DNA from: a virus
Taxonomy: Duplodnaviria; Heunggongvirae; Uroviricota; Caudoviricetes
DNA length: 39,821 bases
Virus record (IMG/VR): IMGVR_UViG_3300045988_152494
Location: 1-39,821 of that record
Direction: 5' to 3' (one strand)
Of this stretch, positions 27,001 through 30,000 are shown one piece after another. Made by a program: the position numbers. Each line of letters opens with the position of its first letter. Position 1 is the first letter of the stretch.

Positions 27001-30000
27001 TGACTTAGACAGACTTGAAGAAAGTGTTAAACAAGGAAAAAATTTAGTTGTTGCTCTAGGCGATAAAAAGTATGTATTCACACAAGTTAAAGAAATAAAT
27101 TATCTTGAAGACTACTTATTTAATAAAAATGAAATATCTAATAAATTAGCCATAGATTTCATATTAGGTTCAGTAAACTCATTACAACTTCCATTTTCAA
27201 AAACTATAACCTCATGTAATTTGAAAGAGTTAAGTTTGCCAGCTAAATATGTGTTAAAACTAAATCAACGCATTGAACGCCACGGAAAACTAGACGACTT
27301 GCTCAATAAAATCACCTTAGATAAAATCAATGCAAATAAAATTTACACCAACATCAAAGATATAAAGGATGCAAAGTTCAAAAAGTACAAAGAATTGTCT
27401 ATAGTCATTAAGAACATAAAAAATATCCCCAAAGAGGAGATTGAAGATTATGTTAAAAAAGAAGCGTTTGTTCAATTCAAGGCATGCGACGTTGACAATT
27501 TAAAAACCCAGTATAGGAAACTATTTCTTGCCTACGACTTGTTGATTCATGGAAATGTTGAAAAGATAAATTAAATAAACGCCCCGTACAAAGCGATGGC
27601 GGGGCTAATAAGTCATTTATGTATCATTTAGCAACTGACTAAAAAAATACACATAAGAACTCAGACTACCAATATTCGATTAAATTTGCTGCCAACCTAC
27701 CGAGCTCACCACAACCCGATGCCCCTCTGTCACGAGGCACATTAAAGCTGTACAAATTTCAGCCACACCAATAAGTCTTCATACTCTTTTTTATAAAAAT
27801 TCATTTAATTATCAATCAGAACAAGTATATCAAACATTATCAATACTAATCGCTATTGACTACACCAATAGCTATTGCTATTGTCATGCTATTGCATCGA
27901 TGTTGGTATCACAAAATTTATAACTTCACCGTTGCGATGACCGCTTAGATCCGCAGCTTGAATTTCAGCAGGCTCCGGGGAGTGCGAGGGGTGAAGCGGA
28001 CGCGTGAACGTCGGTGTGACCAGCTGAAATCAACTCAACACTTCATACCTCAGTCGCTTCAACGAGGCGACTTAGTTATGACAACCGGCGGCCATCCACC
28101 GCCTGAATACGCGCAGAAGTCTCTATATGTTCAGCAGCCCAGCTTACGGGCAGGAGTTTTTATGGTTCATCAACATTACGGAACGCAGACCGTTAATCGA
28201 GGTGCGGTCATGCCAGGAATGCTGGTCAAACACAAAGATGGTACCTGGACTGCATCAGCTAATTTACGCGGACGGCTATATCTGCATCGCGGCATCGAGC
28301 GCACTTATACCCGTGATTTGCTCGTGGAAGTTTTTCTCGACGGACGCGGTAACGGCCTGAATCACTAATCCCCTTTCCTGTTTTCCTAATCAGCCTGGCA
28401 TTTCGCGGGCGATATTTTCACAGCCATTTTCAGGAGTTCAGCCATGAACGCTTATTACATTCAGGATCGTCTTGAGGCTCAGAGCTGGGCGCGTCACTAC
28501 CAGCAGATCGCCCGTGAAGAGAAAGAGGCAGAACTGGCAGACGACATGGAAAAAGGCCTGCCCCAGCACCTGTTTGAATCGCTATGCATCGATCATTTGC
28601 AACGCCACGGGGCCAGCAAAAAAGCCATTACCCGTGCGTTTGATGACGATGTTGAGTTTCAGGAGCGCATGGCAGAACACATCCGGTACATGGTTGAAAC
28701 CATTGCTCACCACCAGGTTGATATTGATTCAGAGGTATAAAACGGATGAGTACAGCACTCGCAACGCTGGCTGGGAAGCTGGCTGAACGTGTCGGCATGG
28801 ATTCTGTCGACCCACAGGAACTGATCACCACTCTTCGCCAGACGGCATTTAAAGGTGATGCCAGCGATGCGCAGTTCATCGCATTGCTGATCGTCGCCAA
28901 CCAGTACGGCCTTAATCCGTGGACGAAAGAAATTTACGCCTTCCCTGATAAGCAGAACGGCATCGTTCCGGTGGTGGGCGTTGATGGCTGGTCCCGCATC
29001 ATCAATGAAAACCAGCAGTTTGATGGCATGGACTTTGAGCAGGACAATGAATCCTGTACATGCCGGATTTACCGCAAGGACCGTAATCATCCGATCTGCG
29101 TTACCGAATGGATGGATGAATGCCGCCGCGAACCATTCAAAACCCGCGAAGGCAGAGAAATCACGGGGCCGTGGCAGTCGCATCCCAAACGGATGTTACG
29201 GCATAAAGCCATGATTCAGTGTGCCCGTCTGGCCTTCGGATTTGCTGGTATCTATGACAAGGATGAAGCCGAGCGCATTGTCGAAAATACCGCATACACT
29301 GCAGAACGTCAGCCGGAACGCGACATCACTCCGGTTAACGATGAAACCATGCAGGAGATTAACACTCTGCTGATCGCCCTGGATAAAACATGGGATGACG
29401 ACTTATTGCCGCTCTGTTCCCAGATATTTCGCCGCGACATTCGCGCATCGTCAGAACTGACACAGGCCGAAGCAGTGAAAGCTCTTGGATTCCTGAAACA
29501 GAAAGCCACTGAGCAGAAGGTGGCAGCATGACACCGGACATTATCCTGCAGCGTACCGGGATCGACGTGAGAGCTGTCGAACAGGGGGATGATGCATGGC
29601 ACAAATTACGGCTCGGCGTCATCACCGCTTCAGAAGTTCACAACGTGATAGCAAAGCCCCGCTCAGGAAAGAAGTGGCCTGACATGAAAATGTCCTACTT
29701 CCACACCCTGCTGGCTGAGGTTTGCACCGGTGTGGCTCCGGAAGTTAATGCTAAGGCGCTGGCCTGGGGAAAACAGTACGAGAACGACGCCAGAACTCTG
29801 TTTGAATTCACTTCCGGCGTGAATGTTACTGAATCCCCGATCATCTATCGCGACGAAAGTATGCGCACCGCCTGCTCTCCCGATGGTTTATGCAGTGACG
29901 GCAACGGCCTTGAACTGAAATGCCCGTTTACCTCCCGGGATTTCATGAAGTTCCGGCTCGGTGGTTTCGAGGCCATAAAGTCGGCTTACATGGCCCAGGT

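What the first reader, a model, noticed from the sequence alone, without database searches (positions are those of the whole stretch)
27820..27960. Putative OL/PL region downstream of the SIR2 gene
Seen in sequence: clustered GCTATTG repeats overlapping a TTGACT ... TATTGT promoter-like pair, located between the SIR2 stop and the leftward early genes (gam-bet-exo orientation). Inference: the leftward early promoter is under repressor control, and the SIR2 gene is expressed in lysogens upstream of it.
Basis: inference. Interest (0 to 1): 0.35.

Follow-up and report, generated by a model that had tools for sequence, protein, structure and literature searches.

The report
Leftward operator-promoter of a lambdoid prophage
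The repeat cluster is very probably the repressor-controlled early-left promoter (OL/PL) of a lambda-like E. coli prophage, placed just after a SIR2 defence-type gene that sits in the slot where lambda carries rexAB: a correct but textbook-type feature.

Summary
GCTATTG occurs four times directly and once inverted in 27852-27894. It overlaps TTGACT(27856-61)-17 bp-TATTGT(27879-84), which reads toward kil-gam-bet-exo.

The repeats are half-sites of two 18-bp palindromic operators of the form yAATAS-N6-STATTr:
- OL2, 27841-58, overlaps the -35.
- OL1, 27866-83, overlaps the -10.
- Their centres are 25 bp apart.

The same motif occurs three times at 25-bp spacing in the cI-cro gap (25090, 25115, 25140), with the same geometry over PR.

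A matrix built only from sites in other phages puts the window's eight best hits in these two clusters. The best hit is OL1 at 24.2 bits; the best hit elsewhere scores 9.5.

Of 80 viral contigs with the identical cI, 77 carry such a pair downstream of cI, after cargo of many different lengths. Salmonella phages BTP1 and ST104 have the pair directly upstream of their N gene.

SIR2 (PADLOC candidate PDC-S25) fills the rexAB-like cargo slot. Its expression in lysogens is inferred from published data on BTP1 (cI-bstA operon) and Perceval.

No binding or 5'-end data exist for this element. It is a new member of a known kind, of low to moderate interest.

The parts
27841..27858 (.). OL2, an 18-bp palindromic operator CAATAC-TAATCG-CTATTG. 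Its last 3 bp are the TTG of the -35.
   Evidence: 12/12 match to yAATAS-N6-STATTr. It scores 20.1 bits with a matrix built from other phages. An equivalent site lies at the same offset in all relatives.
27866..27883 (.). OL1, an 18-bp perfect-half-site operator CAATAG-CTATTG-CTATTG. It covers the spacer, the TG and the first 5 bp of the -10.
   Evidence: It is the best matrix score in the whole window, 24.2 bits. It lies 25 bp centre-to-centre from OL2, as in 77 of 80 related loci.
27856..27884 (+). PL promoter: -35 TTGACT (27856-61), 17-bp spacer, TG (27876-77), -10 TATTGT (27879-84). The predicted start is about 27890-27892.
   Evidence: Consensus scan. Hexamers sit at the same offset from the operator pair in relatives: TTGATA/TATTAT in 55 loci, TTGACT/TATTGT in 12. 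The start site is inferred, not mapped.
27888..27894 (+). Fourth GCTATTG copy, a lone half-site at about +1 with no partner half-site.
   Evidence: No 18-mer that includes it scores above 0 bits. One repeat copy is lost in the 11-bp deletion of strain EC529.
27581..27605 (+). Hairpin after the SIR2 stop, the candidate end of the cI-SIR2 transcript.
   Evidence: -14.3 kcal/mol. There is no U-tract on the + strand, so its terminator function is uncertain. Relatives have a classical terminator at this position.
25967..27574 (+). SIR2-domain gene (PADLOC candidate PDC-S25) in the cargo slot between cI and OL.
   Evidence: Pfam SIR2_2 1.2e-23. PADLOC PDC-S25 1.2e-235. RefSeq calls it a SIR2 family protein. 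The cassette is 27-38% GC against about 50% in the flanks.
25168..25860 (+). cI-type repressor (HTH_3 + Peptidase_S24), the protein expected to bind OL and OR.
   Evidence: Pfam. It is 96-100% identical to the cI of Perceval, 4A7 and the IMG/VR loci. Its N-terminal domain is 88% identical to BTP1 cI.
25090..25157 (.). OR1 (25090-107), OR2 (25115-132) and OR3 (25140-157), spaced 25 bp apart. They overlap PR (- strand: -35 at 25117-12, -10 at 25094-89) and PRM (-35 at 25132-37).
   Evidence: The geometry of OR2/OR1 over PR is the same as that of OL2/OL1 over PL.
25061..25078 (.). Additional operator-like 18-mer between the PR -10 and the cro start.
   Evidence: 18.4 bits. It is kept in E. coli relatives and in a Klebsiella phage.
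27891..28161 (+). Untranslated leader of the predicted PL transcript up to kil. From 27925 it is 97-99% identical to Bievrevirus-type phages.
   Evidence: No N gene and no Rfam match.
28162..30208 (+). Early-left genes kil, gam, bet and exo, the genes served by PL.
   Evidence: RefSeq annotation of an identical locus.

Best explanation
The segment 27841-27894 is the leftward operator-promoter (OL/PL) of a lambdoid prophage.

Mechanism in the lysogen:
- Dimers of the cI-type repressor (25168-25860; HTH plus S24 self-cleaving domain) bind two 18-bp palindromic operators.
- OL2 (27841-58) overlaps the -35 TTGACT. OL1 (27866-83) overlaps the extended -10 TG-n-TATTGT.
- This keeps RNA polymerase off PL and keeps kil-gam-bet-exo-...-int silent.
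- cI and the downstream SIR2 gene are meanwhile read from the maintenance promoter next to OR. That transcript ends before PL.

Mechanism on induction: after SOS-triggered cleavage of cI, PL fires at about 27891 and transcribes the early-left operon.

What is shown: the sequence motifs, their overlap with the promoter, their sharing with OR, and their conservation of position in relatives.

What is inferred: binding by cI (and Cro), the start site, co-transcription of SIR2 with cI, and termination before PL.
For: 1. Repeats and promoter are present as described.

2. The only two perfect matches to yAATAS-N6-STATTr in 39.8 kb are 27841-58 and 27866-83.

3. A matrix built from 16 sites of other phages puts the window's top eight hits in the cI-cro gap and here. 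The next best hit scores 9.5 bits; 200 random sequences give a mean maximum of 11.4 bits, highest 18.5.

4. The k-mer test, which assumes no motif, singles out the same place.

5. PR and PL have identical geometry. The distal operator supplies the TTG of the -35, and the proximal operator supplies the TATT(A/G) of the -10.

6. Phages with about 97% identical cI but other cargo (Perceval, 4A7, PhiR30_1, PhiR70_1, PhiR68_2) have a diverged sequence here. It keeps two operators 25 bp apart and hexamers at the same offset.

7. In 80 IMG/VR loci with identical cI, 77 have the pair 658-1981 bp after the cI stop and the other 3 are truncated. Only 7 stray hits occur in 878 kb.

8. In Salmonella ST104 and BTP1 the pair lies directly upstream of boxA/boxB and the N homologue, which is the classical PL position.

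9. Among SIR2-type alleles, substitutions fall in operator spacers or between operators, not in half-sites.

10. Published data on relatives:
- BTP1 cI-bstA is one operon from a single start site.
- In that table cI is at about 35-290 TPM and bstA at about 14-240 TPM (mostly above 100), while N just beyond OL is at about 4-28 TPM (PMC7067206).
- The Perceval cargo gene is highly expressed in the lysogen (PMC9928086).
Against: - There is no binding, footprint or 5'-end experiment for this element or, as far as I found, for any member of this immunity group.
- The -10 TATTGT is only 4 of 6, and promoter-like matches are not enriched in the region.
- The hairpin after SIR2 lacks a U-tract on the + strand, so how the cI-SIR2 transcript stops before PL is unclear.
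- No OL3 is recognisable in the window.
- No N gene or nut site follows PL, unlike lambda, P22 and BTP1.
- The 18-bp register is a model. A 19-bp register (STATTG-N7-CAATAS) uses the same half-sites.
Confidence: 0.85

Rival explanations
1. It is a promoter for kil-gam-bet-exo that is not under cI control. On this reading the GCTATTG repeats are incidental AT-rich repeats.
For: The promoter-like pair is real. There is no binding evidence.
Against: The repeat motif is shared specifically with the cI-cro gap. It keeps its position over -35 and -10 in diverged alleles and in other genera. Chance sites of this quality are about 7 in 878 kb.
Confidence: 0.05
2. The palindrome GCTATTG-N7-CAATAGC (27852-27872) acts as a transcription terminator or RNA hairpin that ends the cI-SIR2 transcript. 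On this reading it is not an operator.
For: The terminator scan flags it on both strands. The hairpin folds at -7.8 kcal/mol, z = -7.2.
Against: The stem is AT-rich and weak. Its tail on the + strand is TATTGCTATT, and only the minimum of 5 T in 8 that the scan requires lies after the stem. Its two arms are the inner half-sites of OL2 and OL1, so the hairpin follows from the operator layout. In the type A allele of relatives the corresponding arms (GTATTG and CAATAG) are not a perfect palindrome, yet the operators persist.
Confidence: 0.04
3. The operators are bound in a different register: 19-bp sites STATTG-N7-CAATAS centred between what are here called OL2 and OL1. That gives one site at OL and two at OR.
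For: The perfect 7-bp arms at 27852-72 fit it. Both registers use the same half-sites, and variation spares the half-sites under either model.
Against: It leaves the outermost, well-conserved half-sites as orphans: the left half of OL2, the right half of OL1, the left half of OR1 and the right half of OR3. Three further sites keep the 18-bp unit while the gap to the neighbouring site changes. These are OL3 of BTP1 and of the Klebsiella phage at a 20-bp offset, and the site at 25061-78 at a 29-bp offset.
Confidence: 0.1
4. The direct repeats are iterons of a replication origin or a site for recombination or packaging.
For: There are several direct copies of a 7-mer at 6- and 11-bp intervals.
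Against: The O/P replication genes lie elsewhere, on the rightward arm at 22546-24263. The motif is palindromic and shared with the cI-cro gap. Relatives keep the palindromes but not the direct-repeat pattern.
Confidence: 0.01

Closest known systems
OL/PL of phage lambda, with rexAB between cI and OL (own knowledge of the lambda map; rexAB analogy also in PMC7067206 and PMC8585504)
   Same: The order is cro - OR - cI - accessory gene(s) - OL/PL - early-left recombination genes. Operators are shared between OR and OL and overlap -35 and -10. OR has three sites over divergent PR and PRM. cI carries a self-cleaving S24 domain.
   Different: The operators are 18-bp sites of unrelated sequence, 25 bp apart, where lambda has 17-bp sites. 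Only two are recognisable at OL. There is no N gene or nutL after PL. The cargo is a single SIR2 gene instead of rexA-rexB.
Immunity region of Salmonella phage BTP1 (cI-bstA-OL/PL-N) and of ST104
   Same: The cI N-terminal domain is 88% identical. The operator motif is the same at OR and OL, with the same 25-bp spacing and the same placement of -35 and -10. A defence-type gene sits between cI and OL. In BTP1 that gene is shown to be co-transcribed with cI (PMC7067206).
   Different: BTP1 and ST104 are P22-like podoviruses. BTP1 has a third operator 20 bp upstream of OL2, and both have boxA/boxB and N downstream. Their cargo is BstA or orf23, not SIR2. I found no published description of their operators.
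E. coli phages Perceval and 4A7 (genus Bievrevirus) and the PhiR30_1, PhiR70_1, PhiR68_2 group
   Same: cI and cro are 96-99% identical. The leader, kil, gam, bet and exo are the same from 27925 onward. There is no N. An operator pair and promoter lie at the equivalent place.
   Different: They carry other cargo genes and another OL/PL allele (type A: CAATAGCAATAAGTATTG ... CAATAGCAATAGCTATTA with TTGATA/TATTAT). The window has type B. They have a classical terminator after the cargo.
Phage HK022 immunity region
   Same: It is a lambdoid phage without N. cI is a homologue, 40% identical, mainly in the C-terminal domain.
   Different: The DNA-binding domain and the operators are different. HK022 has putL RNA and nun after PL. 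No similarity to the window leader was seen by eye, and the planned blastn comparison did not run.

Membership tests
Lambdoid OL/PL operator-promoter | Lies between the repressor-side module and the early-left genes, and reads toward them | tested here: met
   The order is cI 25168-25860, SIR2 to 27574, the element at 27841-27894, then kil, gam, bet and exo from 28162, all on the + strand.
Lambdoid OL/PL operator-promoter | Sigma-70 type promoter | tested here: met
   TTGACT-17-TATTGT with an upstream TG, 9 of 12. The hexamers keep their offset in relatives. The match is to consensus only, and the start site is not mapped.
Lambdoid OL/PL operator-promoter | Several dyad-symmetric operators of the same sequence family as those at OR | tested here: met
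   There are two 12/12 sites here and three or four sites in the cI-cro gap. The k-mer test supports this independently.
Lambdoid OL/PL operator-promoter | Operators overlap -35 and -10, so that bound repressor excludes RNA polymerase | tested here: met
   OL2 ends in the TTG of the -35. OL1 ends in the TATTG of the -10. The geometry at PR is identical.
Lambdoid OL/PL operator-promoter | Repressor (and Cro) bind the sites, and transcription starts there on induction | not testable with these tools
   This needs EMSA, footprinting and 5'-end mapping. The indirect support is that in BTP1 lysogens N is at about 4-28 TPM while cI is at about 35-290 TPM.
Lambdoid OL/PL operator-promoter | N gene and nutL downstream (lambda and P22 type only; not required for all lambdoids) | tested here: not met
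   There is no N-like ORF. The arginine-rich stretch in ORF 27958-28368 lies in a part broken by frameshifting indels in homologues. BTP1 and ST104 do have boxA/boxB and N.
rexAB-like accessory slot (cI-to-OL cargo expressed in lysogens) | Gene sits between cI and OL, on the cI strand, without an intervening terminator | tested here: met
   The gap is 106 nt (25861-25966), with no terminator-like site in it.
rexAB-like accessory slot (cI-to-OL cargo expressed in lysogens) | The slot is variable among phages with the same repressor | tested here: met
   There are about 28 different cI-to-OL distances among 77 loci with identical cI, and different annotated cargo in five phages.
rexAB-like accessory slot (cI-to-OL cargo expressed in lysogens) | Expression during lysogeny | not testable with these tools
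   This is shown only for positional equivalents: BTP1 bstA (PMC7067206) and a Perceval transmembrane protein (PMC9928086).
rexAB-like accessory slot (cI-to-OL cargo expressed in lysogens) | Anti-phage function of the cargo | not tested
   The cargo matches the PADLOC candidate family PDC-S25 and the ThsA-type SIR2 domain. I found no functional test of PDC-S25.

The most novel reading that the evidence does not exclude
The SIR2 cassette and its private OL/PL allele move as one unit. All 13 IMG/VR loci at the SIR2 cargo distance and all 166 E. coli genomes carrying the cassette have the 'type B' allele; no other cargo has it, although cI is identical. Type B has perfect-half-site operators, TTGACT/TATTGT hexamers, three in-phase GCTATTG copies, and one lone half-site at about +1. 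The allele might retune how tightly PL is held, or couple early-left expression to the defence cargo. On this reading, cargo exchange in this hotspot would also change the lysis-lysogeny set-point.
Probability: 0.15. Interest if true: 0.4.

Novelty: new member of a known kind. Interest (0 to 1): 0.25.

Why it matters
The result gives a testable operator consensus (yAATAS-N6-STATTr, 25-bp spacing) for an immunity group. That group includes the Salmonella ST313 prophage BTP1, ST104, the LF82 prophage Perceval and prophages at the argU (DLP12) site of E. coli. I found no published operator description for it.

It also places a candidate single-gene SIR2 defence system (PDC-S25) in the well-known cI-to-OL cargo hotspot. 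This predicts that the gene is made in lysogens from the repressor's promoter.

Neither point changes how lambdoid regulation is understood.

Tried and rejected
1. put-like antiterminator RNA in the 270-nt leader after PL, considered because no N gene is present.
- Rfam gave nothing at gathering threshold for the whole window, and nothing at E<=1 for 27560-28460.
- The leader does not fold better than shuffles (z = -0.87).
- There is no significant similarity between the PL leader and the PR transcript (best E = 0.55).
- The HK022 putL comparison script failed to run. By eye the two sequences are unrelated.

2. An N-like protein. ORF 27958-28368 starts with an arginine-rich stretch (RGVKRTRERR) that recalls N-protein RNA-binding motifs. 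Homologous loci carry 1-nt and 5-nt indels in that part, and there is no Pfam hit. It is probably not coding; kil starts further downstream.

3. OL3 in the window. BTP1 and a Klebsiella phage have a third site 20 bp upstream of OL2, but no 18-mer at 27780-27840 scores above 2.8 bits.

4. A small gene or RNA on the - strand between SIR2 and OL. There are only 20-29 aa ORFs and no - strand promoter-like site.

5. SIR2 homologues in other genera, sought to see whether they also sit in a cI-OL slot. The GTDB scan returned only two Bacillota loci at 35% identity, which is uninformative.

6. Published operators for ST104, BTP1 or Perceval. None were found in three papers searched for the word 'operator', nor in the epsilon34 genome paper.
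Full report
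**Context.** The window is a lambdoid prophage drawn in the opposite orientation to the usual lambda map.
- The - strand carries cro (24830-25057, YdaS-type HTH), a cII-position gene (24260-24805, YdaT-type), O, P and the late genes.
- The + strand carries cI (25168-25860, HTH_3 plus Peptidase_S24), a SIR2-domain gene (25967-27574), kil (28162-28368), gam, bet, exo and an integrase (32177-33340).
- An almost identical locus in E. coli GE3 lies at the argU tRNA, the DLP12 attachment site. RefSeq annotates it the same way.
- The finding therefore sits exactly where lambda has OL/PL, with SIR2 where lambda has rexAB.

**Observation.**
- GCTATTG occurs at 27852, 27871, 27877 and 27888 on the + strand, and inverted at 27866. 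That is five of the ten copies in the whole window, against 4.7 expected by chance.
- TTGACT (27856-61), a 17-bp spacer and TATTGT (27879-84), preceded by TG, form the only + strand promoter-like site between SIR2 and kil.
- Promoter-like matches are not enriched in the region (9 against 12.5 in shuffles), so the hexamers alone prove little.

**What the repeats are.** Comparison with the cI-cro gap and with related phages shows that the 7-mers are half-sites of 18-bp palindromes, yAATAS-N6-STATTr.
- The only two perfect matches in 39.8 kb are 27841-58 (CAATAC-TAATCG-CTATTG; OL2) and 27866-83 (CAATAG-CTATTG-CTATTG; OL1). Their centres are 25 bp apart.
- OL2 ends in the TTG of the -35. OL1 covers the spacer, the TG and TATTG of the -10.
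- In the cI-cro gap the motif occurs at 25090-107, 25115-132 and 25140-157, again 25 bp apart, plus a further site at 25061-78.
- On the - strand, OR2 supplies the TTG of the PR -35 (TTGATT, 25117-12), and OR1 supplies the TATTA of the PR -10 (TATTAT, 25094-89). PR and PL thus have the same construction.
- OR3 lies over the cI-side promoter (TTGACC 25132-37 ... TAAATT 25155-60). That promoter ends 8 nt before the cI ATG, which suggests a nearly leaderless cI message as at lambda PRM. This last point is inference.

**Is it more than chance, and is the motif circular?** I used two checks that do not depend on the window's OL.
- First, without any motif model, the 80-bp stretch sharing most 6-, 7- and 8-mers (both strands) with the cI-cro gap is the finding region. 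It shares 28 6-mers against a mean of 4.3 (sd 3.3), 18 7-mers against 1.2 (sd 1.7), and 8 8-mers against 0.3 (sd 0.8).
- Second, a weight matrix built only from 16 sites in other phages ranks the window's top eight 18-mers inside the two clusters, with OL1 best at 24.2 bits. The next hit elsewhere scores 9.5 bits. In 200 random first-order Markov sequences the best score averaged 11.4 bits, with a maximum of 18.5.

**Comparative evidence.**
- Phages with 96-99% identical cI and cro but different cargo (Perceval, 4A7, PhiR30_1, PhiR70_1, PhiR68_2) do not align with 27575-27924 by BLAST.
- Just upstream of the shared leader they nevertheless have CAATAGCAATAAGTATTG, 7 bp, then CAATAGCAATAGCTATTA. 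TTGATA and TATTAT sit at the same offsets.
- Of 80 IMG/VR contigs with identical cI, 77 have such a pair 658 to 1981 bp beyond the cI stop, at about 28 different distances. The other three contigs end too early. Only seven other hits of at least 12 bits occur in 878 kb.
- The hexamers at the fixed offset are TTGATA/TATTAT in 55 loci and TTGACT/TATTGT in 12 loci, with minor variants in the rest.
- The motif and layout extend to other genera. In Salmonella phages ST104 and BTP1 (cI N-terminal domain 88% identical) and in a Klebsiella phage, the same three OR sites and an OL pair are present.
- In ST104 and BTP1 the OL pair lies directly upstream of boxA (CGCTCTTTAAC), a boxB-like hairpin and the N homologue. 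That is the classical PL position.
- BTP1 and the Klebsiella phage also have a third 18-bp site 20 bp upstream of OL2. The window has none.
- These extra sites, and the one at 25061-78, keep the 18-bp unit while the gap to the neighbouring site changes. This favours the 18-bp register over a 19-bp register built from the same half-sites.

**Variation within the SIR2-linked allele.**
- The 326 bp between SIR2 and the shared leader occur in 166 of 5,426 complete E. coli genomes, the same number that cover at least 80% of the 24800-28100 query spanning SIR2. In the three checked directly, SIR2 lies next to this segment.
- In an alignment of four such loci, the substitutions within the operator zone fall at 27847, 27851, 27861 and 27873. 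These are operator spacers or the gap between operators, never the 24 half-site positions. With only four positions this is weak support.
- Strain EC529 has an 11-bp deletion between repeat copies. It keeps OL1 but turns the -10 into TATTGC, and its SIR2 gene has an internal stop. Both fit a decaying prophage.

**SIR2 and expression in lysogens.**
- The gene has a SIR2_2 domain. It matches the PADLOC candidate family PDC-S25 end to end (E = 1e-235), with a weaker match to the ThsA SIR2 domain.
- The cassette is 27-38% GC against about 50% around it. This low-GC block includes the type B OL allele.
- No terminator-like site lies between cI and SIR2.
- For BTP1, published dRNA-seq shows that cI and the cargo gene bstA form an operon from a single start site. 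In that table cI is at about 35-290 TPM and bstA at about 14-240 TPM (mostly above 100), while N, just beyond the predicted OL/PL, is at about 4-28 TPM (PMC7067206).
- The authors of that work and of PMC8585504 describe the cI-to-N interval as a known hotspot for accessory genes such as rexAB.
- In LF82, the second cargo gene of Perceval is 81-fold above background in the lysogen (PMC9928086).
- Expression of SIR2 from the cI promoter is therefore a well-founded inference, not a result.
- How that transcript ends is less clear. The hairpin at 27581-27605 (-14.3 kcal/mol) lacks a U-tract on the + strand, whereas Perceval and 4A7 have a classical terminator at this point.

**After PL.**
- The predicted transcript has a 270-nt leader before kil. 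From 27925 the leader is 97-99% identical among the E. coli relatives.
- There is no N gene.
- I looked for a put-like RNA and for an N-like protein and found no support for either.
- Terminator-like sites lie at 28311-27 and 28393-410 on the + strand. Whether early-left transcription needs antitermination here is open.

**Verdict.** This is the OL/PL of an immunity group shared with BTP1, ST104 and Perceval. I found no published operator description for this group, but the architecture is textbook. It is a new member of a known kind, of low to moderate interest. The one unusual point is that the SIR2 cargo always travels with its own OL/PL allele although cI is identical. The association is shown; its functional meaning is unknown.

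Noticed in passing
window 25061-25078: A fourth operator-like 18-mer (CAATTCCTATTGGTATTA, 18.4 bits) lies between the PR -10 and the cro start codon, 29 bp from OR1. It is kept in the E. coli relatives and in a Klebsiella phage. It may be an extra repressor or Cro site on the PR leader.
   Followed up: partly
window 25115-25138: OR2 plus the cI-side -35 (CAATAGCAAAACGTGTTTtgacca) is unchanged, apart from single-base variants in a few loci (e.g. L004, L008 in its flank), from E. coli to Salmonella BTP1/ST104 and a Klebsiella phage, spacer included. It contains a perfect 14-bp palindrome, CAAAACGTGTTTTG (25121-25134). This is more constraint than the half-site model needs.
   Followed up: no
window 27891-28440: No N gene and no boxA/boxB follow PL, here or in the Bievrevirus-type relatives. 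BTP1 and ST104, with the same operators, have both. Terminator-like sites lie on the + strand at 28311-28327 (inside kil) and at 28393-28410 (between kil and gam). How read-through to gam-bet-exo-int is secured is unknown.
   Followed up: partly
window 27958-28078: The long ORF 27958-28368 begins with an arginine-rich stretch (RGVKRTRERR) that resembles N-protein RNA-binding motifs. Homologous loci carry frameshifting indels in this part, so it is probably non-coding.
   Followed up: yes
L010 (E. coli EC529) 3742-3790, equivalent to window 27875-27887: An 11-bp deletion between GCTATTG copies changes the -10 from TATTGT to TATTGC. The SIR2 gene of the same prophage has an internal stop.
   Followed up: partly
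window 25860-27925: The SIR2 cassette is 27-38% GC against about 50% in the flanks. The only relatives among GTDB species representatives are two Bacillota loci at 35% identity, which suggests acquisition from a distant low-GC source.
   Followed up: partly
IMG/VR loci L014-L093: Between an identical cI and the OL pair there are about 28 different distances (658-1981 bp). Many different cargo modules therefore occupy this slot in one immunity group.
   Followed up: partly
window 27565-27612: The hairpin after SIR2 looks more like an intrinsic terminator on the - strand (tail GUUUAUUUAAUUUAUC) than on the + strand. No - strand promoter or gene was found downstream of it that it could serve.
   Followed up: partly
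window about 16108-16190, 18045-18125 and 31373-31455: These are the next-best stretches in k-mer sharing with the cI-cro gap (10 shared 7-mers at the first two and 9 at the third, against 18 at OL). They contain no good operator matches and are probably just AT-rich intergenic DNA.
   Followed up: no
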